From NCBI GenBank assembly GCA_039621445.1, contig CP154954.1, positions 13,930,387 to 13,994,386 on the forward strand: DNA of 64,000 bases. The letters run 5' to 3'. A program made the position numbers and the translations under genes. Shown in pieces: positions 9,901 to 64,000 of the stretch (the stretch's first letter is position 1; each line of letters begins with the position of its first letter). Source of the stretch: Euglena gracilis (taxonomy: Eukaryota). The notes beneath the pieces are model-generated. The model did not search any database. It had not been told where the DNA came from and saw only the letters and a list, made by a program, of their open reading frames with translations.

Positions 9901-12900
9901 TCCGCGCCGTTTTTGCGGGCCTGAATGGTGAGACAACCACCCTGGGAGCCAGCCCAGCTGGGGGTTGCTTGCCAGAGACCGACTGGTGCTCTTTTTCCGC
10001 CAGCCGCATGGCTACATGATAGCGCCCGGCGATGGTTTGCCACCATTGATTTGCATCCACCCAGTCAACAGTTTGAAGATGGCCACCCAATTGCCCACCA
10101 ACAGTTCACGGTGACAAAAACAAAGGGGAATCCATGACATATTAACCACTGATAACGGGGGGGGGTGTGCCAAATCTTCAAGAACTGTCGCTAACCACTG
10201 GGAGGTTGCCGTTCAATTCTGGGTGGTCCTCCTGATAGTGTGTGGGGTTCGGCGGTGAGCCAAGCGTCAGATTAGGCGTTACTGCCACCAAGAGCTGACA
10301 CCCACACCAGTGTGCCCCCCCCCCCTCGAATAGAAGCCCTCTCCCCAAATCTCCCAAAAATAGGCCCTCTGGGCCCTCCCCCCCCCAAAAACCAAATGAC
10401 AGCCCTCCCCCCCACTGGCCCAGCACTTTCGACCAAACACTGCCCAAAATTGAGAGGAAATCTGCAAAATAGGTATATTCCAGAAAAAAAATTGATATCT
10501 GTCATCCTTGGACCATCCGCCATCCACCCATAGCATCAAAAGTCACGTTTTCGACCTTTTTTTTTTACTTTCAGACGCCGTTCGATCCCCGGACCACCCT
10601 CAGCTGCCTTTTGGCCGAAGTCAAACAAAGGTACCCAAATAGAAGCCGTCCCCCATTGTGACCGAATATTAGCCCCAGGGGATTCTAATGGGGGGGCCGT
10701 TCATACTGCCGCCATGTGGGGAGGTGTGTGCAGCAACAAACAGTACCCGATCCCCCCCCTTGTCCACCGACCACCCCTGAGTACCGACCACCCCCTTGTC
10801 GGGAGTTGCAGGGGGTGCATACGACCCCCCCCCCGGTTGAAGGTTGTGGGTAACCTGGGAAAACAGGAGTTTTTTTGGCACCCGCACACAAACACACACA
10901 CACACACACACATATGCAGAACACAGCGTTAGCATATTCCTAAACTTGCTGTAATTAAATGAATGCGACAGATACCCCTTCAACAGAGTGCCGGCATTCA
11001 ATGCTGCGGGGGCTGTACCCGTAGCAACAGCTTGGGTCGGGGGTATGGTACAGACGGGGGTGGGGCTGGCACAAATGACTGAGAACTGAGGAATGGCCCA
11101 AGTCGCCCAACCCCTCACCCGACCCCCCACCCCCCACATCAGGGGTTGCAAGTCAGATGATGCTTATGAGCCCCCTGGTCGGGGGTTGTTGGAACTCGGT
11201 CGGTGGGCACGGGGGGGGGGGGTTCCACAAAGCCAAAATGTTTTGGGCGCAGTGGGTTGGGGTGGTTGACCTTCCGAAGGCCATTGCTGCAGTGGGGTGG
11301 AGCAACTTCTGCAGAATTTTTTTGTTTGATTGTTTCCATGTGCCAAGAAAGAAGGGCGATATCACCACAACAGGTTTCCTTTGGTAGGCAGATGTTTGCA
11401 ATTGCAGCAGCAGTTGCAGTTTCTATTGGCTGGAAAGGTGTCCAGCGTTGCGGCCTCTTTTGCCTCATTTGGCCGGGCGGGGTTTGACCCCCTGAGACAC
11501 CGCCGCTCCCAGCCTCCCACGGGAAGTATTTCAGCCATAGCGACGTGGACGCGCGCTACATCAACCCGCTGCTGCACCCCCCGAACATCTCCGCCTACAG
11601 CCTGTGGACTTGCCTGCAGAGCAAGGCTTCACTTAAAACCTGTGTGAAAACCTGTGTGACCACGGCCCCAGGGGGGGAGGTCGGTTTTCGAGGGTTGGTG
11701 GGTGGGTTGGGGCCTTGGGACCCCCCCCCCCAGGGGTGGGATACACCTGGGTCAGGTTATTCCCCTGCTGAAGGCTGGACCGGATATTTTTTTTCAGCGG
11801 TTTCGATTTTGGCTGGATTTTGGGTGGGTGGTTGGTTGACCCCCGGGGGCGGGGGAGTCGTGGGTGGGTTTTCAAAAAAAATGGGTGGGTGGGTTTGGGC
11901 CCGGGGAAAAGCCCCCCCCCCCCCTCTGGGGTCACTAAGTGATTCCATGCTGTAGAGCAACGACGCCCTCATCGCCTTCGCCTGCCAGCAGCTGTACGGC
12001 AAGTACCAGGCAGGGGAAGGGCTCGCATCCTTATTTCAAAAGCACCCAAGCGCAGGGTCCATCCACCCCTGCAACAAAAGGAACAACTTCACCACACATG
12101 GCGTGCTAAGAATCCGGCCACACACTTTCACCGAATCTTCAACAAGAACTTCTTTTACCCGTCAAGAAGGGGTGAGGTGGCTGAGGTGGGCATCTGGCTG
12201 GGAAGAGTTTGCAGCTGGACAATGGCTTAGCCTTGGGCTCAGATCCAGCATATCTGGTCTCCACTCAGGGATTTTTTTTTAGTCTTGGACCCGGGGGGGG
12301 GAGTAGGGTGGGTGGATCCGGCCGAGATTTTTGGCATATTCCGCGAGTTTTCGACCATTTTTGAGGAAAATTGAGTGGGTCCCCCGGGATCCCCGCCCGG
12401 TCTGAAGAAATCCCCTGTCTCCACTGTGTTGATTGAACCGCCTTTGGGTCTTGGGTTAAAAGCCCTGCGAAACGAAAAACCATTTACTTTCCTAACAAAT
12501 ATACCGCCCACCCTCGGGAAACTATCATGTTGAGAAATTATCAAGGTCTGCGGTACCGGCTGACAGTGGCCTGGAGGTTGGGGGGTGCTTGAATGGAAAG
12601 AAAGGCACTTCCTCTGCTGCCAATCATGGACAGCCATCCCCGAGATGAACCAGGAGCTGGTGCTGGCGGGCCAGCGGTACTGGGTGGCCACCGGCTACAG
12701 CTCCGGCGATCGGGCCGGTGATGGCCGGATGACTGGCTGGACGGCCTAGCGGAACCAGCGGTGGCGGGGCAGAGAGGGGTCGCAACGGAAGTGCTGCCCT
12801 CCAGGGCAGCTCACCGACGTATGGACGTGTGTACGTGCAACAAATGTGCAAAAAAAAAAGGACGATCGTTGCTGGCTGGGCCGACTCAGTCTGTTTCTTT

Positions 12901-34000: not shown

Positions 34001-34300
34001 CAGGCCGTATGTTAGTCGGGTGCCGACCCCACCCCGGAGGGGGGGGGGGTGCCTGCCTGGGCAGGCACTCCAAGGCACAAAAATCCGACCCCCCGGTTGG
34101 GGGAAGGGCACTCGGCCAAAAGTGCCTAGCAGGCACTCCTGCGCCGAAGGCGCGGAAGGCTCAAACAAAGCCTATTTTCAAGGAAAATGGCCTATTTTCT
34201 GAGGAAAGTTCCTGGGCACACGCTGAAATCCGACCCCCCCCCCCGGGGTAGGCACTCAAGTCCGGACCCCCCTCCCCCGGGGGGTGGTAAAAACAGCCTG
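34001..34300. mobile_element. hAT-like MITE nested in a CAGGGCGGTC-family element
   Basis: CAGGCCGT...ACAGCCTG; perfect TSD GCTGGGGC; empty site at about 38325-38345; related to 52458-52605. Confidence 0.9.
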
Positions 34301-35170: not shown

Positions 35171-35453
35171 CAGGCTTTTTTTTTTAGTTGGGTGCCTACT
35201 CCACGGGGGGTGGGTGCTAGGGGCAGGCACCCCATAGCACCCCTGCCGACCCCCCCGGGGGGGGGGGAGAGTTTTGTGGGTGGGTTGGACAGGCACCCCT
35301 GTCCGGGAAACGATCCCGTTTTCTTTACCCTGTTGGCAAGGACCCAGCCGACCCTGGGTACCCCGGGCTGCCCCCCCCCCCCCGCCGGTGTGCCTGCTAT
35401 GGGCAGGCACCCCATAGCACCCCCCCGGTCCCGGTCGGTAAAAAAAAAGCCTG
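35171..35453. mobile_element. hAT-like MITE
   Basis: TIR CAGGCTTTTTTTTTA; TSD CGGAGAAC/CGGGGAAC. Confidence 0.87.
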
Positions 35454-38147: not shown

Positions 38148-38369
38148 CAGGGCGGTCCAAAAGGGATGGGAAGTCTTCTTTTCCCTTTAGCACCACCCCT
38201 ACAGGACCGCCATTTGGCCCAAGGGAAGGTCCAAGGATGCCAGAAATAGCTTTTTTCTGAGTCGACCCATTTTCGCCAAAATATGGCCATTTTTTCTTCC
38301 ATTCTTTCTTATGAATTTTTCATTGAATGTGCTGGGACGGGAATTTTTTTTCCGTTAAGGACTGCCCTG
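38148..38369. mobile_element. hAT-like MITE (CAGGGCGGTC family)
   Basis: CAGGGCGGTCC...GGACTGCCCTG; perfect TSD CTGAGTGC. Confidence 0.9.
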
Positions 38370-44065: not shown

Positions 44066-45041
44066 TAAACCCCCCCAAATAACACCCCCCCAAATAACAC
44101 CCCCCCAAACGACAGCCCCCCAAATAACACCCCCAAATAACACCCCCCAAATAACACCCCCCAAATAACCCCCCCCCCAAATAACACTCCCCCAAATAAC
44201 ACCCCCCCAAATAACACCCCCCCAAATAACACCCCCCCCTCGGGGGCCGATTTCGCGCGCCCAAATAACCCCCCCCCCAAATAATTCCCCCCCGGGTATT
44301 TATTTTTTCGCCCGAAGTCCCGGCCCGAGGGGGGGTATTATTTTGGGGGGGGTATTATTTTTCCAAAATTTTCGAAATTTTTCGAAGTCCCGTAAAACCG
44401 AAAATGGCACCCAAAACCCCCTTTGGGGTCATTTTTTTGCACTTTCTTGTGAAATTTACCATTTTTTGGAGGTCAGATGAGCCAGAAAAATTGATTTTTT
44501 TCGTAATTTGTTGTCAGAGATTGTGATTTTTACCCACATTTTCAGGTTAAAATCCGGGCCAGGCTTCTTTTTAAGACACCTGACCCCCCCCCCCCCCCGG
44601 GAGTGGGTGGGTCCGGGCCGGACCCCCCGGGGGGGGGGGTCCCGCGCCGGAGGCGCCGGGTATACCTTTTCGGCGCGAAGCGCCGAAAATTTTTGAAATT
44701 GCCTTTAGCGGGCCCGATTTTGGGGGGTCCCCCCCCCCCCGGGGGGGTCCCGCGCCACCCTGGGTGGGTGGGGGGGGACCCCCCCCTCCCCCCCCCCCCC
44801 CGGGGTCCTAAAAAGAAGCCTGATCCGGGCCTTTGGCCCGAGACCGAGGGGGGGGTATTATTTCGGCGGCCGAAGTCAGACCCCAAGAGGGGGGGGTATT
44901 ATTTGGGGGGGTGTTTTGGGGGTTTAACACCCCCTCCTGTTTTCCATGTAAAAATAACACCCCCCCAAATAACACCCCCCCCCCGGGGTCCCATTTCGGG
45001 TGCCCAAAAAACACACCGGGGGGTGTTATTTGGGGGGGTTA
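44066..45041. mobile_element. TA-flanked MITE with (AAATAACACCCCCC)n array
   Basis: TIR with about 12 tandem motif copies at 44077-44290; hosts 44560-44822. Confidence 0.87.
44560..44822. mobile_element. hAT-like MITE nested in a TA-type element
   Basis: TIR CAGGCTTCTTTTTA; perfect TSD ATCCGGGC; empty site at about 4608-4635. Confidence 0.93.
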
Positions 45042-47213: not shown

Positions 47214-47355
47214 ATGGCCGGCATCGGAGGCCTCCAGGGCAGCCGCATCAGCCTCATCAGCAAGAGCGAGATCCGCTACGAGGGCTTCCTCTACAGCATC
47301 AACCCAGATGAGAACACCGTCGCGCTGCGGAACGTCCGCATGTTTGGCACCGAAG
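47214..47355 (+). CDS. LSM14: LSM14 exon 1
   Basis: [24 protein letters not shown]...MFGTE; GT donor at 47356. Confidence 0.95.
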
Positions 47356-50300: not shown

Positions 50301-53300
50301 TTTACAGGGGGGGAGGGGAATATTTTTGAGGTTTCCCCGAAAATCTCGAGGGGTTCTTGTTTGGGGGCGGGGTATCTGGTTTTGCATTATTGCTGAACAT
50401 CGAAGTGGGGGGAATGTTCATTTTGGGGGGTTCACCCTGAGTTGGCTCGGGTCTGCAGGACCTGACGGTGTTCGACGCGGTGCAGAAGCAGACGGCGCAG
50501 CCGCCGGACCCGGCTATCCTCAACGCCTGGCAGGCGCCCTCCGCCCCCAGCGCCCCGAGCAGCGGCTGGCAGGGGCCGCCCATCACGGTGCGTGTTGTGC
50601 GGCTTTGCCCGGGTCAGCGGTCGATTCCCTGGCCAGTACCATGCCCCCCCCCCCGGGGGGGGTCGAACCAACCTGGAACGATAGCAAAGCATTGCCAAAA
50701 GCCCAAAGCAGTACCAGATTTCCCATGAATGGCTGCACGCCTGCACCGCGGCGCCTTTCCGCGCAGTTCGCCTCCCGCGGCCCCCCTCGGGACGAGTACC
50801 TTGGCCGGCCGGCCCCCCGCGGGCCCCCCCGGGATCGCTACGGCTACGACCAGGACCGCTACGGCTACGACCGCCGCGACCGCCCCGACAACCGCTGGGA
50901 CGACCGCCGCGAGGACCGGGACCGCGGGGCCCGCTATGGCGGGCGGGACGATCGGTGTGTCTGGTGCGGGTCCTGTTCCTCGATGATTGCCAGCGGGAAC
51001 GGCCACCTGATTGGGCTACTGCCATGCGCGTTGGTCAAGTTCTCCGGGGTGGGGCTTCTATCAGGTGCATGTACGAGCTTTAGTCAAGTTTGTCCTCTGC
51101 ACAGGGGAGGGGGGGGAGCTACTGATCGGCATTTGAGTCAATATCCCCAGGGGGGCTGTACAGGGTTGGAAGGTGGGCCTGACCCCAACCATGGGGGTGT
51201 GTCTGGATCCAACCCCCACCCAGGGGCAGGGCACACGACCAAAAGTACCAAAGGCACGAAAGCGAGAGCTTACTCCGGCACCAAAAGTCCGGATGAGGGC
51301 TTTTTATGCCACGCCATGCTCCCACAGCCAGGGAGGCATCGCCTGCCCAGGCACTCCAGGGCACTCGGAGACCCCATTCCCCCCTGCGGTTGGTCAAATT
51401 CAGCCCCGGAGCTACTAACGGTAGCGGGGCAGGGACCACTATTCGGGGGGGGGGGGGTTGATTCCTGCCTGACTGACTATGGCGCGGTGGCCACGCCGCT
51501 GTCGCCGCGCAGGGACCAGCGCTACGGCGGCGGCCGGGACTACCAGGACCGCGGCTGGCAGCCCCGCGGCGGCTACAACGACCGCGGGTCGTACGGCGGC
51601 GCGCGCTACAACGACCGCGGGTCGTATGGTGGTCCCGACCGCCGCGACCGTGACTGGGAGCCCCCGCGCGGCGGCGCCCATCTCCTCCTGTGGGACACCC
51701 CGCCATGCGAGTATTATTATTGTTTTACAATTTTTTATTACATTTTTATTTGTATTGTTTTTATTTTTTTTGTATCCCCCAGACCACCAAGGGCATTCCA
51801 CAGTGAGCATCTAATGTGTCAAATGGGAGTTTGTCGGATTTCGGTTGTGAAACTCAAGACTTTGTGTTTTGACTAACCCCCCCCAAAATAAGACCCCCCC
51901 AAAAATAAGACCCCCCCTGGGCTGATCAAGCAAAAATCCAAAAATAAGACCCCCCATAAATAAGACCCCCCTGACGGCGCGAAGCGCCGGGGACGGTGAA
52001 AATTTTTCCCGAAAAGTTACAAAAAACCACAATTTCACAGAAATGATGAAATTTCAAAAAAATTCAGATTTTTGAAGTGCAAAAAAACATGATAAATGTC
52101 AATTTACACCAATTTACACATGGCGCGAAGCGCCGAAGAAAAATTTTTGTGTTCTTGGGAACCTGAAAAATGGTGTTTTTTTTCGGGCCCGGGTCGATCA
52201 AGAACCCCCCCCCCCAAATAAGACCTCCCCTAGAGGCTTCCAGCAACGGACCCAAAAATAAGACCCGGGTCTTGTTTTTGAGGGGGGTTTATGAGAACTG
52301 AATCCCAATGGGATGCCATGCGTTGATTTGGTGGCCGGTGGTGCGACCTGCCTCTTTTCCTCGTGCGGTACTGTGGTTGGTCGGTGTACCCCGTACCAGA
52401 TATCTTGCACATATGCAATAAGTTGCATGGGGTCAGAAATCGGGGGGGGGTCCAGAACAGGCTGTATTTTAGTCGGGTGCCGACCCCCACCCCGGGGGGG
52501 GGGGGTGCCTGCCTGGGCAGGCACTCCAAGGCACTCCCAATCCGACCCCCCGGGGGGGGGGGTAGGGCACACGGCCAAAAGTGCCCTAGCACAAAAAACA
52601 GCCTGGTCCAGAATAGGGCAGCCAAGGGGGGATGCCCTCAAGGCCGGCCGGGACGACCGTCGGGATGATCGTCGGGGCAGCGGCAAGGACGACCGCCGCG
52701 GCGGTGGGAAGGACGATCGCCGCGCAGAGTTCAGTAGACAGTTTGGAAGTGGTCGCTTCCTCGGGAGGGGCAGCAGGGGGCCTGTGAACACCATGCAGAT
52801 TAGGCAGGGCAATTTTTGGTAAAAATTCTGTTGAAGCGCGTCTTGTACCTGCCCCCGGACGCAATGTGTCAACAGCACATTTTGGGACAGCACCCTCCGT
52901 TTTCTTCAAGGGCAGTGATCGTGGCACAGTGTGTCGTTGTCGCATGCCCCAACGGCACATTCCCGTATTCCTGCAGGGAGGTGAGGTCACCCCCAGCCAG
53001 GGGTGGTCAGCGGGCTGCACTTCGAGGTCAAATTTCGTTGCCGAGTCCTCATTTACTTATAAAACATGACTTGCAAAGGAAGTGAATCGTCCCAACCGGA
53101 ACGAACGCATTTGTTTCAACGATTGAAAAGGCACATTCACAGGTTTAAGCTGAAGCTGCATGGGTGCTTGCGTGTTTGAACGGCAAATGAGAAGGGACGC
53201 TAGCTTGAGGACAACATCAACAAACCCGTGGCTGTGTTTTCTTGAGGAGGGTCCACTCTGCCCTGCTGCTGAACCGGGAAGGAGGACCGCCAGCCGGCCA

Positions 53301-56300
53301 AGGGCGACCGCCAGCGGGGCAAGGACGACCGCCGCCCCGCGAAGAAGGACCAGAAGGAGGGCCGCCAGGAGCGGCGCCCCGAGGGCAAGAAGCCCCGCAG
53401 CGAGAGGTGTGTGCTGGGGAGGCTGCATTTTGGGGTAAAATTCGCCGAGTCCTCATTTACCTATTAAGCATGACCTGCGAAGGAAGTGAAACGGCCCGGA
53501 ACGAACGATATTTGTTTCAACGAGTAAAAAAGCACATTCACACATTTAAGCTGAAGCTGTGTGGCTTGCAGCGTCGAGCAACGTTCAAAACCAGACATAA
53601 TTTAATCCCCTGCCTATCAAGATGTGTGTATCATTTCTTCGCCCTTCTCTGCAATGACGGCTTTGTCCCTCATCTAATTACTATTTCTATATCCATTCTC
53701 ATTTGCTGCTCAAACACTCAAGCACCTCCCTCCCTTGCCGCCCTCTCAGTGCTCGTTCGAATGCCGACCAGCACACCGGCCGCAACTTCAAGGTGGATGA
53801 CTCCGGGGCGGCCAAGAAGCAGTACGCCGAGGAATTCAATTTCGAGGAGAACCTGAAGAAGCTGGACCTCACCAAGGTGCCCCTGGACACGTGGGCCTCC
53901 GTTGATAAGCATTATTTTGGGTGAGATATTTCTTAGATTTCTTGCTGGATGCCAATGTCTGATCAATTGGCACAAAACCCTGTGTAGGTCGTATGAGACG
54001 TCAGATGCAATGTGTTATGCGAGATGTGGAGTGTGTCATGTGAAGCATCATGTGGCATGCGTAGTGCGCCATATGCAAGAATGTGAGTGGGTGATTGGGT
54101 GAATGAGTCTGCATTGGGTATGTCACATGTGAGGTCAGTGACCCTGGTCATCAGGTGGCACAGGAGTTCCAAGAGAAGGCAAGTGAGTCCGAGACCGCGG
54201 AGGACAAGAAGGTCAAGGTGCAGTTCACAGCCGCCAAGGTGCCACCTCTGTGTGCAGCCGAACAAGTTGAGTGGAATACCGTCTCGTGTGGCTGGGAGCT
54301 ATCCATTGGGCAGCTCGGCAAAAACGCTGTGTTTCATTCTCCCAAACGGGTTGTTGATGGTTAGTGACCCGGGGGGGGGGGGGGGGGAGTCCCCAGAATG
54401 GCGGTTTCCTCTATTTTCTACACAATGGGATCAGAAAACATCGGACCAAACTGACTCCCAGAATCGCCCCTGGCGCCTGGTGGGTGGGTGGGTGGGTGGT
54501 TGCCAACCCTGCCTCCACAAAGCAAACGTGACCCCAAAACCCACAGGGTAATAAGGGGAATGGGCAGGTTTGTTCCTGCTTCACAAATTGGGCCAAAAAA
54601 TCATATAACTCCCACTTGTCCAGGTCTGAAGTTTGAGAGCATTGATAATGTCATGCCCTGACCCCAGACATATCACAGCAATGTGGATGTTCATATGGAA
54701 AGGGTTGTGGTCTGTAGTGCAGTTTTTTTTCAGTCAGACATTGGCAATGCAATGTACATTGTATGCATGCTTGGGTCGGTGCAGGATTGTGATGAGGATT
54801 TGTTCAGACGGGGGAAACACTTTTTGTGGCTTGTTCCGTTTTTTTGAATTACGCAAGTTTTGTTTTTTGTTTGTGTTATTTTTGTGTTCCCCAGCGGTTT
54901 TTTTTTTTGGCTTCTGCTGGGAACAGGGTGTCAATAAGCCAAAGTCCAAGTGAATTTTCCAAGGAAAGTGATTTACAGCCACCACATCCCCCACCCCATT
55001 GTCCACCGACCGGGTTCCTTCACTGACCGGGAAGGGGGGGGGTCGTCACCCCCCCCTACAACCCCAAACCAGGGGGTGGTTGTACGGCTGGGTGCCAAAA
55101 ACAGCCCAATTTTTAAATTCACCAACACCAGGAGGGTGGTCGGACGCCGCCCCCCCTTCCTGCGACCCCCGACAACGACAAGGGGGTGGTCATTGTTTAG
55201 GGGTGGTGGGTGGGCAAAGGAGGGGGGGCAAGAGACTAAAGCGGTCCTCCCGAGCTTAAAAATCCCTGGAACATACAACCCAAGGCTGAAACAGAACTTG
55301 TTTTGCAGCATACTAACTAAAAGTATGATCTGAATACCTGCAAACCTCATCCACCCTCAGCATTCCCAAACCGCATTTGCAAATATTTCTGCAGATTATA
55401 TGTATATGCACATATACTCTCTATCTCTCAAATATTTTGCACACATTCAATGTATATATACATAATTGTAGATTTATTCTTCTAATAGGGTTGTGCCAAT
55501 TAATCGTTTCAAGTCGAACGATTAGTTGCGATTAATCGGGGGGTGTCAGACGAATCACAGTTAATTGGTCAATATAGGATATTTCCGCAAAGGAACACAA
55601 AAAATCAACATCCACACAAAGAATAACAAAAAAAATTTGTAGTGCGAGAGCCCTCGGAAAAGAATACTTTTAACCGTACAGCAGGCGAATTGCTCAGTGG
55701 TGGAGCTCAGGGCTAACAACCAGGGCCAACAACCCCGTGGTTCTGGGTTCGATCCCTGGTTCGCCCCCTTTTGGGTCATTTTTTCTTGCAAAAAGTGGGT
55801 GCAAGTGCACTTTTTCAATTTGTTCTTGGAAAACAATTTAAAGCAAAAGTCAGGTATGGACCGGACCCAAACAGTACTCTGACTGATTTGGCTCCATGGA
55901 CTCAATGGTCCAAAACATCGTGCGTGTGTTGATGTCCAGGTTGAGGTGGATCCCCCCAGACATTCAACAGGGGGCAGGAGGGAAAATTATGTCGTTTTAT
56001 TATACTATTTATTATTTATACTATTTATTATATTATACTATATTATATTATACTATACTATACTATATTATACTATACTATACTGTACTATACTATACTG
56101 TACTACACTATACTATACTATACTATACTATACTATTTTATACTATACTATACTATACTATACTATACTATACTATACTATACTATACTATACTATACTA
56201 TACTATACTATACTATACTATACTATACTATACTATACTATACTATACTATACTATACTATACTATATTATATTATACTATATAGTATATATAGTGTATA

Positions 56301-57272
56301 TATATGTGTGTGTATATATATAGTGTATATATATAGTGTATAGTATAGTATATTATACTATACTATACTATACTATACTATACTATACTATACTATACTA
56401 TACTATACTATACTATACTATACTATATTATACTATACTTTACTATACTATGCTATACTATACTACACTATACTATACTATAGTGTATAATATGATATGG
56501 TATGGTATGGTATGTTCTGGTATGGTATGGTACGGTATGGTATAGTATAGTATAGTATAGTATAGTATAGTATAGTATAGTATAGTATAGTATAGTATAG
56601 TATAGTATAGTATAGTATAGTATAGTATAGTATAGTATAGTATAGTATAGTATAGTATAGTACAGTACAGTACAGTACAGTACAGTACAGTACAGTACAG
56701 TACAGTACAGTACAGTACAGTACAGTACAGTACAGTACAGTACAGTACAGTACAGTACAGTACAGTACAGTACAGTACAGTACAGTACAGTACAGTACAG
56801 TACAGTACAGTACAGTACAGTACAGTACAGTACAGTACAGTACAGTACAGTATAGTATAGTATAGTATAGTATAGTATAGTATAGTATAGCATAGTATAG
56901 TATAGTATAGTATAGTATAGTATAGTATAGTATAGTATAGTATAGTATAGTATAGTATAGTATAGTATAGTATAGTATAGTATAGTATAGTATAGTATAG
57001 TATAGTATAGTATAGTATAGTATAGTGTAGTGTAGTGTAGTGTAGTGTAGTGTAGTGTAGTGTAGTGTAGTGTAGTGTAGTATAGTATAGTATAGTATAG
57101 TAATAGTATAGTGTAGTATAGTATAGTATAGTAAATTATCATATAGTATAGTATAGTATAGTATAGTCAAATGGGTTTAAAGTTTTGCAGTTTTGGGGGA
57201 ATTTTTGTATTTTTGATTTTTTTTATCTTTTTTTTTTTTTTTTTTTTCCCCCTTGTTTTTTTTTTGTCTTTT

Positions 57273-57305
<33 letters not shown>

Positions 57306-57455
57306 CTTTCTTTTTTTTTTTTTTCTTTCTTTTTTTTTTTTTTTTTTGTTTTGATTTTTTGTTTTTTTTCTTTTTTTTGTTTTGTTTTTTTTTTTTTGTT
57401 TTTCTTTTTTTTTTTTTGTTTTTTTTTTTTTTTTTTTTTTTCTTTGTTGTTTTTT

Positions 57456-57487
<32 letters not shown>

Positions 57488-57492
57488 TTTTT

Positions 57493-57523
<31 letters not shown>

Positions 57524-60500
57524 GTATAGTACAGTACAGTAGAGTAGAGTACAGTACAGTACAGTACAGTACGTCCCTGGAGAAGTCTGCCCAGCCAGCA
57601 CCCAGGACCCCCTCCCCATTTTGCAAATGGGTAAAGTTTTGCAGTTTTGGGGGAATTTTTGTATTTTTGATTTCTGGGCACGTGGTTCACCCCGTGTTCT
57701 GAAGGGGGAGGGGCAGGGGGGGGGTCAACCAGCAGCTTTTTAAAGCCAGCCCAAGTTTTCCAGCCTCTGAAGCTGGAGCCCCCCCCCCCCCGGGTGGTAA
57801 ACATTTTGGACTTGGATGCTTTCTGCGGTTTGAGAACAGGAGGTGTCGTGTGTTGATGTTTCCCCCCCAAAAAAATTGGGTGAGAAATAATTGCCTGGGG
57901 AAAAATGCCCACCTTCGCTATTGTTAATACCCCCCCAAAACCCCCCCAGTTTTATATTCGGGCAGAAATTTCAAGACCCCCAGGGGGTTTTTATATTTGG
58001 GGTGGGGTTATATTCGGTCGAAAAAATAAATTTCCTGGCGGGATCCAGTAGTCACTTTTTCGGTCCAAAATCACAAATACGCCCACCTTTGGGGGTCCAA
58101 AATTTTTACTTTTCGGGCGAAGGAGCAAATTTCTCGTTTTTGGTAAAAAATGTTCCCAACTGCCGAAAATCACAATTTGAGGAGGTATTTTGTCAAAAAG
58201 ATTTCCTTCCGGTGCTTTGCGCTGGAGGGGGTTTTTTATATTCCGGCGGGATTTCAAGGTCCTCAGGGGGGGTTTTATATTTGGGGGGTTTATATTTTGG
58301 GAAGGGGTTATATTTGGGGGGGGTTTAAGTGAAGCAATGGTTTCGGGGCACAGTCCATTTTTAATGTCCTTTTCTTCTCCCTACGACAGGAGGTGTACAA
58401 CAAGGAGGAGAGCTTCTTTGACCAGATCAGCTGCGAGGCACTGGAGCGGAAGATCACCGGACCTGAACCCAAGGTGCAAATACGCCCGGAGTCAGCATTT
58501 TTTTTGGAAGGATATCCCCCCCCCCCAGTCAATTGCCCCCCATGTGGAATCGATCAAGGTCACAAAAGCATCCCAAAGCAGTCGTTTTTGGCTTCTCGCC
58601 AATGTGACGTTTTGGCCGGCACAGATGGGGGTGACAACTTGAGGGGGGGGCATAACTCAGGGTTTCCCACTGATTCGTACACAAATAAATACGAATAAGT
58701 ACGAATAAGTACGAATTGCCGAGATCTGCCAAAATACGAATATGTACGAATAAGTACGAATAAGTACGAATGAAAAATTCCCCACTTACGAATAAGTACA
58801 AATTGCCAAGTAGAAAAAGGTACAATTTTCTACAACGTTGCACTGACTTGAAGGGCCCTCACACTTCTCTGTATGTGATGCACATTGTCTTATGAGTGTA
58901 TAGAAACTGCACACTTGTCTTGAGCTGCCAGCCCCTTTTTTCCAGCCAGTAGCTCCCAGCTGGGCTGCGGACATCCCCCCCCCCCCAGCGGTCCAGCTGG
59001 CACCTTTTGCCAGCCAGCCAGCTGGACCCCCCCCCCCGGGTCCTTGCTCACAAAATTGAATTGCCCTGGTCTGAACCGTCTTTCAGTTTGACAGGACTGA
59101 TTGATGTCAAAAACCGCCAACACATGTCATCCAACCTTCGGAAAGCAGCCGTTGGCATGTTTTGCAATGGTGACTGCGAAGAACGCTTTACACACCATTG
59201 AACAGTCCGCTCGTTTCATCTTGAGTATTTGTTCGTGCATGCATGCTGGACAACATCAGCCGCAAAGAAGAAATGTATTTTTCCTGTACTGTTTTGTATT
59301 TTTTTCTCACAACGATTTTTTTCACAAGTTTCGCCAGAATGAGTTCGTCACTTAGATAGTTTCTCAAGTGAATGACCTGTTTTGCTTGCTTTTCTCGGTT
59401 TCAGAACGTTGAAGATGTGCCCAAGGAAGCATACCAAACGGTCATCTATTGCCATACATGGCCCTTTTTTGAAGTACGAATAAGTACGAATAAGTACGAA
59501 TAAGTACGAATAAGTACGAATAAGTACGAATGGGCAGGGGAGTCCCCAAGTACGAATCAATGGGAAACCCTGCATAACTGCTTGCATTGCTGTGGTGGGT
59601 GGGTGGGTGGGTGGGTGGGTGGGGACAGAGATGGGGGTGCCCCCAGGTGGGGGTCCAGCAGGTGGGTACCCCTACGGATTAGATAATTTTTTTAAAATGT
59701 TATAATAATAACATATTTATACATTATGTACACACGTATATGTTTTATATGGTATATATAACATTACATGTATATATTGCATGTGTGTATACATATAAAC
59801 ATATACACCCATGTATGCACATGTGTGTCTATTATGCATTATATTATATTATGTGTCACATGCCTACAAATAATTTGGGTTCTGGCATTTCCTCAATCGA
59901 AAATTTCCCAAATGAACTCTCCACAAAAATTTTTATTCGCATACCATTTGTGATTTGTAACGTTTTCTGGGTGGGGGGGGGCGGGTAAAGTCGATTTTGC
60001 ACGATGTGCTTCAAACATATTTCAAGCACATAGTTCCAGGTGGTTGTGTGCAAGCATCAGTTCGCGCCCAAGCAGCACAAACAAGCGACATATCACAAGT
60101 TAGAACATACTTCCCAGCGTGTCCATCACAGAATGGCTGACAAAAGTTCTGTTTGTTGGGCTACCTAACGATTCTGGTGCTTGCGGGAATGCACCTCCCC
60201 TGTCCCAATTCAATCTGCTATTGAGCCCATACCATCCGATGTTATAATTTAAGCAAGCGACCGAGGGAAATAGGGAGGGGGAGAATGAAAAAATGAAAAA
60301 TCAAATAGTCATGCACAAATGGTGCTTAAGTCGTCATACACAGTCAGGTGTGAATTTTTAATAATCATGGAACGTAATGTGTGCCATTTTTGTCGTTACT
60401 TTTGTCACCTTGGCTGCGGCTGCGGTGAGGCATGCATCTCCCCTTGTCCTTTCTTCTTTGCTTATTTTAGAGTGACTTCCTTTGATGACTGTTCCATCCG

Positions 60501-61634
60501 AGGGGATTCAGGAACCCTCGGCGTTTGTGTCTGGTGAACAAAAAAAATTAAAAAATTAAGTTTAATTTAATTTAAAAATTTGAAAAGGATTAAATTTTTA
60601 GCAAGCTTTTGGCATCTTGGAAGAAGCAAAATTGAAAAAATCCCTTCTTGCTGGGCACACTGGACCTTTTGCTTTTTTGCATTGATGGATATTTGCATGA
60701 TTCACAAGGAATTGTCACCAAAAATTTTCGCGTTTTTGCATTTTTCCTACAATTCTAATATCGAATGAATTTTCGGAAAAAAATCAATTTTCAACTTGTG
60801 GTGAACATTTTTAAACAAAAACCAGTTTGCATTTCCCCGACTCCAACCCATTTTTCGCGTTTTTGCATTTTTCCTACAATTCTAATATCGAATGAATTTT
60901 CGGAAAAAAATCAATTTTCAACTTGTGGTGAACATTTTTAAACAAAAACCAGTTTGCATTTCCCCGACTCCAACCCAGTTTCCTCATTTCGTCACTCACA
61001 TGCTTGCACCGCGGGTGTCGAATTCGACGACGTTTTGCTGAACCCCCGTAGTGCACGTCCTTGGACCCATCACAGAAAATGGATAAGGAGCTTCGGGAGC
61101 AGCAGAAGCAGCTGGACCGCGAGACCTTCGGGGAGGCTGGCGCGGGCTTCAACCAGACTTCCTTTTAAGGAGGGAGGGTCACACCTCCCCAGGGTGGATG
61201 GGGGCTATGGGCAGGCAGGGGAGGGGGAAGACATTTCCGACCCCGGGGGGTTTGGAGCCATGACACCCCAACGTTTTGTTTTGTTCGGCTTCTTGGAGTC
61301 ACAAAACACCTGTGTAACCCCCCCTCCCCTGGGTGGGTTTCGAGAGTGGGTGGGTGGTTGGGGCTGCTAGACCCCCAGGGGTTGGATGAGTTTTGATCAG
61401 CCAAAGGCTGGACCGTGATATTTTTTGAAGTGCTGGTTTTGGCTGATTTTGGGTCGACAGGTTCGCTGGGCGGTGTTCGGTACCAAGACAGGTTTCCTTT
61501 GCCACCCCACGGGTTAAAATCAGACGCCTGGCGTCGGGTACGGCTATGGCCCCCGCGCCGGGTTCCGCGGCCGCAAGCAGCGCAGCAACTTCAAGACGGG
61601 CGGCGGCGGAGCCGGCGGCTACTCCAACTACTGA
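47214..61634 (+). CDS. LSM14: Spliced gene: Lsm14/Scd6/RAP55/DCP5-family mRNA decapping activator and P-body protein, 12 exons, about 463 aa
   Basis: N-terminal LSm14 domain ([41 protein letters not shown]...[14 protein letters not shown]), RG/RD-rich middle, FDF-like [12 protein letters not shown] box [16 protein letters not shown] box LDRETFG, RGG-type tail. The exons sum to 1392 nt, which is in frame. Confidence 0.96.
47403..47733. mobile_element. TA-flanked MITE (TATGTCCAA family)
   Basis: TIR Cn-TATGTCCAACGACC / GGTCGTTGGACAAA-Gn-TA. Confidence 0.85.
48332..48411 (+). CDS. LSM14: LSM14 exon 2
   Basis: CAG|..[28 protein letters not shown]. Confidence 0.95.
48548..48899. mobile_element. 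TA-flanked MITE (TATGTCCAA family)
   Basis: TIR TA-Cn-TATGTCCAATGACC / GGTCATTGGACATA-Gn-TA. Confidence 0.88.
50459..50587 (+). CDS. LSM14: LSM14 exon 3
   Basis: [27 protein letters not shown]...GPPIT|GTGCGT. Confidence 0.93.
50767..50954 (+). CDS. LSM14: LSM14 exon 4
   Basis: [14 protein letters not shown]...YGGRDD|GTGTGT. Confidence 0.9.
51513..51675 (+). CDS. LSM14: LSM14 exon 5
   Basis: CAG|..[10 protein letters not shown]...WEPPRGG; followed by nonconventional intron 51676-52639 (stem CATCTCCTCCTG/CAAGGGGGGATG). Confidence 0.88.
51874..52291. mobile_element. TA-flanked MITE (AAATAAGACCC family)
   Basis: C-run/G-run TIRs; relatives in the opposite orientation at about 2730-3080 and about 13000-13392. 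Confidence 0.85.
52458..52605. mobile_element. hAT-like MITE inside LSM14 intron 5
   Basis: CAGGCTGT...ACAGCCTG; perfect TSD GTCCAGAA. Confidence 0.9.
52640..52729 (+). CDS. LSM14: LSM14 exon 6
   Basis: [30 protein letters not shown]; nonconventional introns on both sides; 3' end +/-1. Confidence 0.82.
53276..53406 (+). CDS. LSM14: LSM14 exon 7
   Basis: [49 protein letters not shown]; upstream stem GTTCAGTAG/CTGCTGAAC; 5' end +/-2. Confidence 0.85.
53750..53876 (+). CDS. LSM14: LSM14 exon 8 (FDF region)
   Basis: CAG|..[44 protein letters not shown]. Confidence 0.92.
54155..54238 (+). CDS. LSM14: LSM14 exon 9
   Basis: [33 protein letters not shown]. Confidence 0.88.
55684..55766 (+). pseudogene. 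Degenerate tRNA or tRNA-derived SINE head in LSM14 intron 9
   Basis: Acceptor stem GGCGAAT/GTTCGCC, D stem GCTC/GAGC, T arm GGGTTCGATCCC; the anticodon region carries a 13-bp tandem duplication CAGGGC(T/C)AACAAC. Confidence 0.7.
55998..57167. repeat. (TATAC)n followed by its reverse complement (GTATA/GTACA/GTGTA)n
   Basis: Directly visible; orientation switches at about 56480. Confidence 0.96.
57215..57522. repeat. Poly-T low-complexity tract (possible read artefact)
   Basis: About 300 nt of almost pure T; preceded by a copy of 57626-57672. Confidence 0.85.
57928..58327. mobile_element. TA-flanked MITE (TTATATT family)
   Basis: TACCCCCCCAAA...TTTGGGGGGGGTTTA with a repeated GGGTTTATATT motif. 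Confidence 0.7.
58390..58473 (+). CDS. LSM14: LSM14 exon 10 (FFD box)
   Basis: [33 protein letters not shown]. Confidence 0.93.
58658..59572. mobile_element. TIR element with (TACGAATAAG)n subterminal arrays
   Basis: 23-bp TIR CAGGGTTTCCCA(C/T)TGATTCGTAC; flanked by the direct repeat CATAACT (7 bp as assembled). Confidence 0.88.
60724..60977. repeat. Near-perfect 127-bp tandem duplication
   Basis: 60724-60850 is repeated at 60851-60977. Confidence 0.92.
61076..61150 (+). CDS. LSM14: LSM14 exon 11 (TFG box)
   Basis: [28 protein letters not shown]; followed by nonconventional intron 61151-61535. Confidence 0.9.
61154..61530. mobile_element. Diverged MITE forming LSM14 intron 11
   Basis: Ends CAGACTTCCTTTTAAG...TTAAAATCAGACGCCTG resemble the TIR of 44560-44822; interior resembles 11680-11825. 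Confidence 0.62.
61536..61634 (+). CDS. LSM14: LSM14 exon 12
   Basis: [32 protein letters not shown], with TGA at 61632-61634. Confidence 0.85.
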   Translation, partial: GYGYGPRAGFRGRKQRSNFKTGGGGAGGYSNY

Positions 61635-64000
61635 CCCCGCAGGTCCGCCCTTGCTGTTCTCTGAACCCCTGCTGTTGTTTGTCGGTCGGTCGGTCTGTCT
61701 GTCTGTCGGTCGGTCTGTCGGTCGGTCTGTCTGTCTGTTGTTTGTTTTTGGTCGGCGAATCTGGCAGTTAAATGTGTTTATCTTTGCCTTTGCACAAAGG
61801 AACACATTTTTTTATATTTTTTTTAGAGAGGTTAGTCCAGGTTTTTGAACTGTCCCTTGCACGCCAGCCCTCTGTGTGTGCATTTTGTGTGGTTTTGCAG
61901 GGGTGAAACCTGCAGGAAAAGCCGAATTTTTTTGTCCCTCCGAAACATGGCGCGGAGTTGTGAAAACCCCTGCGTTGACCCCCAGGAACTCAGAATTACA
62001 CAAATTTGTGTGAAACCCCTCGTATTATCCGCCACATTTTTCTGATTGACAACTGGTGGAAATCATCCTGCTCTTTACCCCTTTCGAGAATTCTCAAATG
62101 TCTCTAACAGTCTACTTCCACCTGCCAAACACACTTCTTTCGCAACAAACTTCATTTATCCCCTAAAGTGTAGCAGGCAACCAAAAAGCAAGCAAAGGGG
62201 TTGATTTAAGAGCATCACCTTGCGCTGGTAGTTTGTGTGGCAGATTGGCCACATCATCTCACTTACATTGAGATTCTGTGACACCAATTCGGCAACAAAA
62301 TCAATGTTCCTTCACACAACTGTGTAACGAAGCATTATTTGTCTTTTTGCGCAGTTGTGCAAATGAGCAATTTCATAACCAACCAACAGCCTCCCATGCC
62401 AACGTGTTGTAGCTGGAAAACAAATGTTGGCTACATCATATGATATATTATATCCTATCATATCAATTAACCCCGGGGCTGAACCACCAGAACATCTTTG
62501 TGAAAACATACTGCTTTCCTAGATCTTAGGCGGCCTAATTCGCATTTAAGCTTTTTTATTTTTTTGCGCATTTGCGCAAATTTGCGAATTTTTTGATTCT
62601 GCTTTGATTCGGCTGTGAAGGTCAGGGTGGTTTGAAAACACGTTGACAAGAGAGTGCAAAAAATATGCAAAATTCTGTTTTTGGCTGTGTGACCCCCGGG
62701 ACCTTGCCCGCCCGCACTGAAAAAAATAAAAAAAAACACCAAAGGAACGGGACCTTTACTGCCCTTGTTGCTTCTTTCGGCTGTGTCCCCGGGTGTGCCC
62801 GAGCTGCCGGCGGTGTGTGTCCTGGGTTTTTACCGGACTGCTTTGCTTGCGACGCCTTGCTGTGGTGTTTTGGGGCTGTTTGTCAAAGCGCGGGGAGGAG
62901 GTGCCGGGGGGTGTGGGTGTTGTGTGACCGAGTGGGAAGGAGGGACGCAGTGAGAGGAAGGTAAGTGTGGGGTGTTGGGCAAGGGAAGGGCAGGGGGGAA
63001 GAAATAGGGTCCATAGGGAATGAGGGGGATGGGTGTCTCCCACCCAGCTTATACCCGGAATCCACACAACCAGTTGTGTGGCAAAGAACCCAGCAGAAGA
63101 AGCCCAACACCGGAAGGACAAAATTGTGTTTATTTGCGCGCAAATGCGTGCACCAACATGTTTATGTTTATTTGCGCATTTGCGCAAATAAACATAAACA
63201 TGCCCTTCAAGGATTGGGCTTTAGTACCCATGAACTGACGCTGTTGAAAAACGGTGTGACAAAGGAGCTGTGAGTGCGCAGACCAACGGGCCGTCCAGTT
63301 GGTAGGTTCGTCACACTGTTTGTCGACACGCAAGCTTATGGGCGCAAATGCGCACACAAACAAAAATTATGTTTATGTTCGCATTTGCGCAAATGCGCAA
63401 ACAAACATGTTCTTTGTTTATGTGCGCAAACGCGCAAATAAACACAAAGAAGAACGGTGTGATGGAAACACAACCGTCAAACACCAGCAGCAGATGTGGT
63501 CTATTTGCGCATTTGCGCGCATCACATTGTTTGTGGGCGCAAATGCGCAAATAAACTGCATGAGAAAACTGTACAATGTACATTTGGTTTATCTGCGCAT
63601 TTGCGCAAATAAACCACGTGATGCGCGCAAATGCGCAAATAAACCACCAACGGAGGAGTTTAAAGCGACTTCATTTGGCACTCCAACAACCACCCTCAGT
63701 GGCTTCTGAACGGGTTCAACCCAAATGGCAACACCGTCTCCTCTGGTATATGGTGTTTTGGTGCCGTATCTGGTGCCTTGACAGGTCCCACAAAAGACGG
63801 GAGACAGAGGATGTCCTGAGGTGGGTGCGCAGCCACCCAGTAACCGTACTCGTCCACCGGCACCAATTTTTGGGTCCCAAGGGCCCTGCCACTGGCCTGT
63901 GGCCTCGGCTCCGCTGTTGTAGCCACATCAGCTGCTGATGCTTCAGCACCCACCAGACCGGCATCCACCTCCCCGGTGCAACAACACCCAGCTTTAGCGG

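What the first reader, a model, noticed from the sequence alone, without database searches (positions are those of the whole stretch)
61146..61538. LSM14 last intron looks like an older MITE-derived intron
Seen: intron 61151-61535 has no GT donor and follows N3-CAG...CTG-N5|G. Its ends (CAGACTTCCTTTTAAG; TTAAAATCAGACGCCTG) resemble the TIR of free MITE 44560-44822. Its interior (GTTTCGAG..GGTGGGTGG..AAGGCTGGACCG.GATATTTTTT..TTTTGGCTG.TTTTGGGT) parallels 11680-11825 of the intron-forming element in the cyclase. TSD remnant: GCTTC vs GCGTC (4/5); the 3-nt part has diverged. Inference: related elements created introns in two unrelated genes.
Basis: partly seen in the sequence, partly recalled or inferred. 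Interest (0 to 1): 0.78.

Follow-up and report, generated by a model that had tools for sequence, protein, structure and literature searches.

The report
RNA-confirmed nonconventional intron built from MITE pieces
The last coding intron of this euglenid-type LSM14 gene is a real, RNA-confirmed nonconventional (non-GT-AG) intron made largely of decayed miniature-transposon sequence, which gives a concrete example for the long-standing but unproven idea that such introns come from transposons.

Summary
RNA reads join 61150|61536 (385 nt skipped, 2-nt sliding): 36 and 31 reads in two runs plus one transcript contig. No register gives GT-AG. The ends fit the published N3-CAG...CTG-N5|purine code. 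The in-frame AG at 61522-23 is not used.

About 160 nt of the interior (61295-61463) is truly homologous to the cyclase-intron element (nhmmer E 2e-10; shuffle z 12).

The rest is weaker. The free MITE 44560-44822 aligns from its terminus to the intron's CAG only at E 0.005. The 3' 70 nt match nothing beyond a TIR-like tip. The "TSD remnant" is 4 of 8, which is chance level.

The cyclase-like block starts at or near that element's own left end, 133-141 nt inside the intron, next to a second TIR core (GGCTTCTT, 61287-94). The intron therefore looks composite: two MITE arms, nested or tandem, rather than one old element.

Context supports a MITE origin. The window holds about 9-10 elements with CAGG...CCTG ends and 8-bp target duplications, and 8 equals the 3+5 spacer of the splicing code.

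This is a new member of a known intron class and useful support for the MITE-origin hypothesis.

The parts
61074..61150 (+). Penultimate coding exon of LSM14 (encodes ...[12 protein letters not shown], the TFG-box region)
   Evidence: RNA joints 58471->61074 (GT..AG intron, 36+19 reads plus a contig) and 61148->61534. Translation. The TFG-box name is recalled knowledge of the LSM14/Scd6 family, not a tool hit.
61151..61535 (+). Nonconventional intron, 385 nt (equivalent registers 61149-61533 and 61150-61534)
   Evidence: 36 reads (X21), 31 reads (X22) and 1 transcript contig (X15) skip it. RNA depth inside is 0-0.3 against 11-13 in the flanking exon bins. It is present in the DNA contigs of X1.
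61151..61153 (+). 5' spacer N3 (AAC)
   Evidence: The position rule comes from PMC12501133 (passages read).
61154..61170 (+). 5' CAG motif (61154-56) and TIR-like end CAGACTTCCTTTTAAGG
   Evidence: It matches 8 of the first 10 nt of the 44560 TIR by eye. As a 30-mer it ranks 47 of 2402 CAG sites.
61154..61285 (+). Left arm: weakly MITE-like from its first base
   Evidence: Smith-Waterman alignments start at element position 1 for e52458 (z 4.3, 0/300), e35171 (z 3.7, 0/300) and e44560 (z 2.5, 7/300); nhmmer e44560 2-219 = 61155-61364, E 0.0047. Against: the family profile gives E 0.16, and the arm alone gives a best E of 0.21.
61287..61294 (+). Internal second TIR core GGCTTCTT, identical to positions 3-10 of the free MITE 44560-44822
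   Evidence: the alignment 61287-61453 = 44562-44724 starts here (z 6.7, 0/300).
61295..61463 (+). Block homologous to the cyclase-intron element, from that element's left end on
   Evidence: 61295-61456 = 11625-11827, 133/206 identical, z 12.1, 0/300; nhmmer 61302-61463 = element positions 11-212, E 2.2e-10; blastn E 1e-9. DNA word depth is 254-318 in bins 61221-61474 against 30-45 beside them.
61464..61510 (+). Stretch with no detectable relative in the window
   Evidence: no element reaches z > 2.5 for 61461-61530; the right part alone has no hit below E 0.65.
61511..61530 (+). 3' TIR-like end GGGTTAAAATCAGACGCCTG with the CTG motif at 61528-30
   Evidence: The reverse complement CAGGCGTCTGATTTTAAC... 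best matches the right end of 44560-44822 and ranks 25 of 2402 CAG sites.
61531..61535 (+). 3' spacer N5 (GCGTC)
61536..61643 (+). Last coding exon (starts with G; stop TGA at 61632-34); the exon ends at 61643
   Evidence: contig piece 61534-61643, loose ends behind 61643, and zero RNA depth from 61729 on.
11622..11949 (+). Comparator: element inside the cyclase gene (ends CAAGG...CCATG, flanks CTGCAGAG / CTGTAGAG)
   Evidence: Flanks were read by eye. Its splicing was not checked with RNA here.
44560..44822 (+). Comparator: free MITE with a 14/15 TIR and a perfect 8-bp TSD ATCCGGGC

Best explanation
61151-61535 is a nonconventional (euglenid-type) intron whose sequence is mostly the decayed remains of non-autonomous DNA transposons. 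These belong to a superfamily, abundant in this window, with CAGG...CCTG termini and 8-bp target-site duplications.

Shown:
- The intron is removed precisely 3 nt upstream of a CAG and 5 nt downstream of a CTG, before a purine.
- Its middle 160 nt is a copy of the element family that also sits in the cyclase gene.

Inferred:
- The CAG and CTG that direct removal are the outermost bases of transposon terminal inverted repeats.
- Because 3 + 5 = 8 equals the duplication these elements make, cutting there removes the element plus one duplication copy and restores the original reading frame.
- The intron is a composite of two element arms: a left arm 61154-61285, and a second element whose own left end lies at about 61287-61295 and whose right end may be the intron's 3' end. 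This could arise by one element landing in or next to another, or by transposition of an already chimeric element.
- It is old. Its two ends match each other only 6/10, and its flanking duplication has decayed to 4/8.
For: RNA:
- The joint 61148->61534 (385 nt, both = 2) is seen in 36 + 31 reads and 1 contig, and in none of the DNA contigs.
- No GT-AG is possible in any register.

Code match: N3-CAG, CTG-N5 and a purine at the acceptor exon are as defined in PMC12501133 (passages read).

Interior homology:
- nhmmer E 2.2e-10 and 4.4e-9 in the two directions.
- Shuffle z 12.1 to 12.5, 0 of 300.
- Orientation-specific: the minus strand gives z 0.4.

Free-MITE link:
- e44560 positions 2-219 align to 61155-61364, starting at the terminus, E 0.0047.
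- For the whole intron, z is 5.0 with 0 of 200 shuffles.
- Three Smith-Waterman alignments to three different TSD-flanked elements all begin at 61154 = element position 1.

Superfamily context:
- 8 elements with TIR >= 11/15 and TSD >= 7/8 were found by rule, against 0-2 in seven displaced-flank controls.
- Two more were found by eye (34001-34300 with perfect TSD GCTGGGGC; 27285-27542 with 7/8).
- One of the ten (33324-33408) is doubtful.

Other:
- No Pfam family was found in the 4 ORFs that overlap the intron.
- DNA word depth inside the intron is 254-318 against 30-45 in the flanks.
Against: - The ends are only modestly TIR-like. They were not found with <= 3 mismatches to the 18-nt TIR. Their ranks of 47 and 25 of 2402 are helped by G/C runs.
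- The left arm alone is not significant by profile methods: family-B profile E 0.16, single-sequence nhmmer E 0.21. Dinucleotide shuffles may understate chance in a window full of G-run and C-run modules.
- The last 70 nt have no significant relative.
- The TSD is 4/8 (hand-computed P about 0.11).
- Terminal pairing energy is -16.9 kcal/mol, not better than shuffles (-14.1 +/- 3.3; 95 of 500 reach it). 202 of 1000 random window pairs also reach it.
- Only one 64-kb window could be searched for copies, because no genome is held.
- Part of the raised DNA depth could come from a few very common G/C-rich words.
Confidence: 0.55

Rival explanations
1. A single element of the same family as the cyclase-intron element inserted once, its two TIRs became the intron ends, and everything between them is one diverged copy.
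For: - One colinear nhmmer alignment of the free MITE 44560-44822 (positions 2-219) covers 61155-61364, E 0.0047.
- The free MITE itself carries two direct copies of the C-run + GGGTGGGTGG module (read), so two such modules in the intron need not mean two elements.
- The left arm against the rest of the intron shows no significant direct duplication (z 1.8, 16 of 300).
Against: - The cyclase element aligns from its position 4-11 to intron position 145-152. A single-element model therefore needs a ~135-nt insertion just behind the left TIR plus loss of cyclase positions 213-300.
- An exact 8-mer of the TIR core (GGCTTCTT) sits at 61287-94, directly in front of that block.
- The best matches of the left arm are to a different sub-family (e52458, e35171) than those of the middle.
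Confidence: 0.17
2. This is an older nonconventional intron of unrelated origin, for example from double-strand-break repair as proposed for a gapC intron in PMC4770533. It later received one or two MITE insertions. Its CAG/CTG ends resemble TIRs only because the splicing code demands CAG, CTG and nearby pairing.
For: - The only statistically robust homology is internal (61295-61463). It seems to carry its own left terminus.
- The TSD is not above chance.
- The terminal 70 nt at the 3' side have no relative.
- Fully synthetic sequences obeying the code are spliced (PMC12501133), so function alone could explain CAG/CTG.
Against: - Function does not require GCTTC or TTTTAAG behind the CAG, yet both ends carry them.
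- Alignments to three TSD-flanked elements start exactly at 61154.
- Almost no sequence is left that could be the 'original' intron: only about 61464-61510.
- An insertion that brings its terminus exactly to position +4 of an existing intron is improbable unless that terminus is the signal.
Confidence: 0.22
3. The resemblances are chance products of low-complexity G-run and C-run sequence, and the intron has nothing to do with transposons.
For: - The window is full of GGGTGGGTGG and C-run modules that give many weak hits.
- The whole-intron fold is unremarkable (z -0.96).
Against: - The shared blocks with the cyclase element include non-repetitive strings: TTTCGAG, AAGGCTGGACCG, GATATTTTTT, TTTTGGCTG, ATTTTGGGT. 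They lie in the same order over 160 nt, E 2e-10.
- The match is strand-specific.
Confidence: 0.03

Closest known systems
Euglenid nonconventional introns (Milanowski et al. 2014, PMC3935182; 2016, PMC4770533; splicing code in PMC12501133, 2025)
   Same: - No GT-AG.
- CAG at +4..+6 and CTG at -8..-6.
- 3-nt and 5-nt spacers.
- A purine starts the downstream exon.
- A short direct repeat makes the junction slidable (here 2 nt).
- It sits in a gene that also has conventional GT-AG introns.
   Different: [quoted passage not shown] Here the intron interior has a measurable homologue in another gene's intron, and TSD-flanked free relatives lie in the same 64 kb.
Introners / transposon-derived introns (reviewed in PMC11282704, Mob DNA 2024)
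   Same: A non-autonomous DNA element with TIRs and a target duplication sits in an exon and is removed at the RNA level so that the reading frame is restored. Related copies occur in unrelated genes.
   Different: Introners of Micromonas, dinoflagellates and others are removed by the spliceosome, using splice sites co-opted from the element or the duplication. This intron has none of those signals and follows the euglenid CAG/CTG code. This copy is old and composite rather than one of many near-identical recent copies.
hAT-superfamily MITEs (8-bp duplication, termini beginning CAG/TAG) and the maize Ds element acting as an intron (Giroux et al. 1994, cited in PMC3935182)
   Same: Free elements in this window have 8-bp duplications and CAGG termini. 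That 8 bp and CAG-type termini are typical of hAT is recalled knowledge, not a tool result.
   Different: No transposase of any kind was found among the 118 ORFs of 125 aa or more in the window, so superfamily assignment is untested. A search of the paper library for Euglena + hAT + nonconventional intron found 0 papers.

Membership tests
Euglenid nonconventional intron | Removed from mRNA at borders that are not GT/GC-AG in any register | tested here: met
   67 reads and 1 contig. The three registers allowed by the 2-nt slide are TC..CG, CA..GT and AA..TC.
Euglenid nonconventional intron | CAG at +4..+6 and CTG at -8..-6 (3-nt and 5-nt spacers) | tested here: met
   with the register 61151-61535: CAG at 61154-56, CTG at 61528-30. 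The rule is from PMC12501133.
Euglenid nonconventional intron | Purine as the first base of the downstream exon | tested here: met
   G at 61536.
Euglenid nonconventional intron | Base pairing that brings the two ends together | tested here: inconclusive
   CAG/CTG and TTTTAA/TTAAAA can pair. The duplex energy of -16.9 kcal/mol is reached by 95 of 500 shuffles. The whole-intron minimum-energy fold does not show it.
Euglenid nonconventional intron | Excised as a full-length circle, independent of U1-type recognition | not testable with these tools
   No back-joints were listed, but intron RNA depth was about 0, so nothing can be said.
CAGG...CCTG / 8-bp-TSD MITE superfamily of this window | Terminal inverted repeats beginning CAGG | tested here: inconclusive
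   The left end is CAGA..., the right end reverse-complemented is CAGG... The two ends match 6/10 ungapped (by eye). Ranks are 47 and 25 of 2402. They were not found at <= 3 mismatches.
CAGG...CCTG / 8-bp-TSD MITE superfamily of this window | 8-bp target-site duplication directly outside the termini | tested here: not met
   GCTTCAAC vs GCGTCGGG = 4/8, chance level. Free members have 7-8/8. Decay with age would explain this but cannot be shown.
CAGG...CCTG / 8-bp-TSD MITE superfamily of this window | Internal sequence homologous to other members, colinear from the terminus | tested here: met
   The middle block matches the cyclase element at E 2.2e-10. e44560 positions 2-219 = 61155-61364 at E 0.0047. 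The match is weak for the outermost 130 nt on their own (E 0.16-0.21).
CAGG...CCTG / 8-bp-TSD MITE superfamily of this window | Short, non-coding, multi-copy | tested here: met
   The element is 377 nt. No Pfam hit in overlapping ORFs. Homologues in the window. DNA word depth is 254-318 against 30-45.
hAT superfamily | Related autonomous element encoding a hAT transposase | not tested
   No transposase domain in 118 window ORFs. No genome was available.
LSM14 / Scd6 gene | N-terminal Scd6-like Sm domain; FDF, FFD and TFG boxes downstream | tested here: met
   - Pfam PF12701: E 3.6e-17 (47220-47402) and 4.6e-8 (48292-48444).
- The FFD- and TFG-box exons are joined in one transcript contig.
- The box names were recognised by eye and from recall.
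- Pfam gave no hit on those short exon pieces.

The most novel reading that the evidence does not exclude
The euglenid nonconventional splicing code (cut 3 nt before CAG and 5 nt after CTG) is the RNA-level mirror of one DNA-transposon superfamily, probably hAT-like, whose members end in CAGG...CCTG and duplicate 8 bp on insertion. Because 3 + 5 = 8, the cell removes the element plus exactly one duplication copy, so any exon insertion is healed in the mRNA. The LSM14 intron would then be an old, twice-hit product of this process. The TSD-flanked free copies in the same window would be the still-recognisable source population. This would also reinterpret the 8-nt direct repeat at a recently gained gapC intron (PMC4770533), which its authors attributed to break repair, as a target-site duplication.
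Probability: 0.5. Interest if true: 0.85.

Novelty: new member of a known kind. Interest (0 to 1): 0.6.

Why it matters
The origin of euglenid nonconventional introns has been open since at least 2013. As late as 2025 it was described as unclear, with MITEs only suggested (PMC3935182, PMC12501133; passages read). In one species these introns make up about 72% of all introns (PMC12501133).

This locus offers a checkable case. It has an RNA-verified nonconventional intron whose interior is homologous to another gene's intron. Its ends resemble those of free elements that carry 8-bp duplications. The arithmetic 3 + 5 = 8 links the splicing code to the transposition footprint.

If this holds genome-wide, the origin question becomes a tractable family census, and the unknown excision machinery could be sought among transposon-related functions. 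This particular intron is the weaker, decayed example. Its value is as supporting evidence, and as a warning that such introns can be composites.

Tried and rejected
- **Whole-genome copy census:** impossible, because no genome is held for this window.
- **Metagenome scan** with a 19-21-nt pattern from the conserved block: 30 loci came back, but blastn showed that only the pattern itself (20-29 nt) matches in each. These are chance hits and were discarded.
- **Earlier notes of this scan:** none exist for this genome or for these words.
- **Family-B profile (nhmmer) for the left arm:** E 0.16, not significant. I therefore do not claim family membership for 61154-61285.
- **Tandem duplication of the left arm inside the intron:** not supported (z 1.8).
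- **Candidate inner borders and duplications** for a nested element, checked by eye: GTTTTGTT / GTTTTGGC at 61278 / 61437, and GCTTCAAC / GCTTCTTG at 61146 / 61288. The first is crossed by the homology to both comparators. The second needs an element end that is not TIR-like. Neither was adopted.
- **Exceptional RNA structure:** neither the whole-intron fold (z -0.96) nor the terminal duplex is exceptional.
- **Reading-frame test** for whether the free MITEs lie in exons: uninformative, because long spurious open frames are common in this DNA.
- **Transposase search in the window:** none among 118 ORFs.
- **In-frame AG at 61522-23 as acceptor:** no such joint in RNA.
- **Literature:** searches found no paper in the held library that identifies a free MITE family matching nonconventional introns, or that links them to hAT. 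Subscription-journal papers and the supplements of the cited papers were not seen and could hold such data.
Full report
**What is there**

The + strand from about 47.2 kb to 61.6 kb carries an LSM14/Scd6-type gene.
- Two exon pieces hit the Pfam Scd6-like Sm domain: E 3.6e-17 at 47220-47402 and 4.6e-8 at 48292-48444.
- Downstream exons encode what I recognise from recall as the FFD box (58.4 kb) and the TFG box (…DRETFGE…, 61.1 kb).
- The finding concerns the gap between …GAGF (ending at 61150) and [14 protein letters not shown]… (starting at 61536).

**Is it an intron?** Yes.

I laid two raw RNA-seq runs, one set of transcript contigs and one DNA run of the same species label on 58300-62100.
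- The joint 61148->61534 skips 385 nt, with two letters (TC) fitting either side, so 61151-61535 is one of three equivalent registers.
- It is seen in 36 reads (X21), 31 reads (X22) and one 1282-nt contig (X15). It is absent from the DNA contigs of X1, which carry the intron in place.
- RNA depth is 11-13 in the exon bins and 0-0.3 inside.
- A 386-nt variant of the skip is seen in 4 reads of X21 only.
- None of the three registers is GT-AG.
- The register 61151-61535 gives AAC-CAG…CTG-GCGTC|G. This is the code defined experimentally in 2025: 3-nt spacer, CAG, CTG, 5-nt spacer, purine (PMC12501133, passages read).
- The intron just upstream (58472-61073) is an ordinary GT..AG intron (36 + 19 reads), so both intron types sit in one gene.
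- Most reads are 95-99% alike. Two versions of the upstream exon appear as loose ends. The RNA therefore mixes this locus with an allele or paralogue, but the X15 contig matches the window with 0-2 differences per piece.

**Is the interior related to the cyclase intron element?** Yes, robustly.
- blastn: 61305-61454 vs 11647-11825, E 1e-9.
- nhmmer: E 2.2e-10 and 4.4e-9 in the two directions.
- Smith-Waterman: z 12.1-12.5, with 0 of 300 dinucleotide shuffles reaching the score, and only in the + orientation.
- The shared blocks include non-repetitive strings in the same order.
- DNA word depth rises to 254-318 in bins 61221-61474, against 30-45 beside them. This fits multi-copy sequence, although a few very common G/C-rich words could contribute.

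**Where does that homology start and stop?** This changes the picture.
- The alignment runs from the cyclase element's own left end (11625, position 4 of the element) to 11827, and from 61295 to 61456 in the intron.
- The free MITE 44560-44822 also aligns to this middle part, starting at its TIR core: GGCTTCTT at 61287-94 equals positions 3-10 of that element (z 6.7, 0/300).
- So a left terminus of this family appears to lie about 135 nt inside the intron.
- The last 70 nt (61461-61530) have no significant relative in the window.

**Are the intron's own ends MITE ends?** The evidence is suggestive but not strong.

For:
- nhmmer aligns the free MITE from its position 2 to 61155, running to 61364, at E 0.0047.
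- Smith-Waterman alignments to three different TSD-flanked elements (44560, 52458, 35171) all start at 61154 = element position 1, with z 2.5-4.3.
- Both terminal 30-mers find their best partner in the right end of 44560-44822 and rank 47th and 25th among 2402 CAG-starting sites.

Against:
- The 18-nt TIR is not found at either end with up to 3 mismatches.
- A profile of the 52458/34001/35171/27285 family hits the left arm only at E 0.16.
- The left arm alone gives E 0.21.
- The two ends match each other only 6/10.
- Their pairing energy is ordinary.
- The proposed duplication remnant is 4/8 (GCTTCAAC vs GCGTCGGG), which I compute by hand as P about 0.11.

**Context that supports a transposon reading**
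- A rule-based scan required CAG…CTG, TIR >= 11/15 and an 8-nt flank identity >= 7/8. It finds 8 elements in the window, against 0-2 in seven controls with a displaced flank.
- Two more were seen by eye (34001-34300 with perfect GCTGGGGC; 27285-27542 with 7/8). One of the ten (33324-33408) is doubtful.
- All begin CAGG and end CCTG.
- Their duplication length, 8, equals the 3 + 5 spacers of the splicing code. Cutting there removes the element plus one duplication copy.
- No transposase domain was found among 118 window ORFs, so the elements here are non-autonomous. A hAT assignment (8 bp, CAG-type termini; recalled) is untested.

**Best reading**

This is a nonconventional intron made almost wholly of decayed MITE sequence. 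It is probably a composite of two arms, with the outer CAG and CTG being element termini (confidence 0.55).

Rivals:
- An older intron of other origin that later received MITE insertions (0.22).
- Chance (0.03).

The window alone cannot order the events.

**What is known**
- The MITE hypothesis dates from 2013/14 (PMC3935182).
- It is repeated in 2016 (PMC4770533, which also reports an 8-nt direct repeat at a newly gained gapC intron but attributes it to break repair).
- It appears again in a 2024 review (PMC11282704), in a 2024 intron survey (PMC11170887), for diplonemids in 2025 (PMC12621601), and in the 2025 splicing-code paper, which still calls the origin unclear.
- I read only the passages returned by term searches in these papers.
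- Six library searches found no paper that identifies free element families matching these introns. Supplements and subscription journals were not seen.

**Verdict**

This is a new member of a known intron class. It has moderate-to-good interest as concrete, testable support for the MITE-origin hypothesis.

Noticed in passing
window 15022-15389, 18102-19529, 19812-20228, 27285-27542, 34001-34300, 35171-35453, 38148-38369, 44560-44822, 52458-52605 (33324-33408 doubtful): A population of short elements with CAGG...CCTG inverted ends and 8-bp target-site duplications (7-8 of 8 identical). Controls with a displaced flank give 0-2. The duplication length equals the 3 + 5 spacers of the nonconventional splicing code.
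   Followed up: partly
window 61643-61644 and beyond: Transcripts leave the window sequence 9 nt after the stop codon (10 reads in X22 and the X15 contig carry other letters behind 61643). RNA depth is zero from 61729 on. The continuation is not found anywhere in the window. This points to a further 3'-UTR intron whose acceptor lies outside the window, or to an assembly difference.
   Followed up: partly
window 58388-58393 (upstream exon near 54212-54240): Two versions of the upstream exon are joined to the 58.39-kb exon (50+34 reads and 19+11 reads). At 61596 a further 9+8 reads diverge. This suggests a second expressed LSM14 allele or paralogue with a different C-terminal end.
   Followed up: no
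window 11614-11957: The cyclase-gene element has one-letter variants of the usual ends (CAAGG...CCATG) and flanks CTGCAGAG / CTGTAGAG (7/8). The code predicts removal of 11619-11954. This was not checked with RNA.
   Followed up: no
window 21493-21597 and 26697-26990: Further relatives of the cyclase-intron element (nhmmer E 8.5e-13 and 6.1e-10). The first carries the same right end (GGGTCACTAAGTGA...) and lies next to another cyclase-type exon (…MFADIEGFS…).
   Followed up: no
window 58554-59570: Inside the conventional intron 58472-61073, the DNA run's word depth reaches 5,000-94,000 against about 30 nearby. This stretch is an extremely abundant repeat in the genome, and a few RNA reads map there too.
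   Followed up: no
window 60713-60965: A tandem duplication of roughly 126 nt of an AT-rich unit (…TTTTCGCGTTTTTGCATTTTTCCTACAATTC…) lies inside the same conventional intron.
   Followed up: no
window 55900-57530: Long simple tandem repeats lie in another LSM14 intron. They read as …YYTIL… and poly-K/F in translation.
   Followed up: no
window 61148->61535: A minor junction skips 386 instead of 385 nt (4 reads, one run only). It would shift the frame. It may reflect imprecise removal, an allele difference or read error.
   Followed up: no
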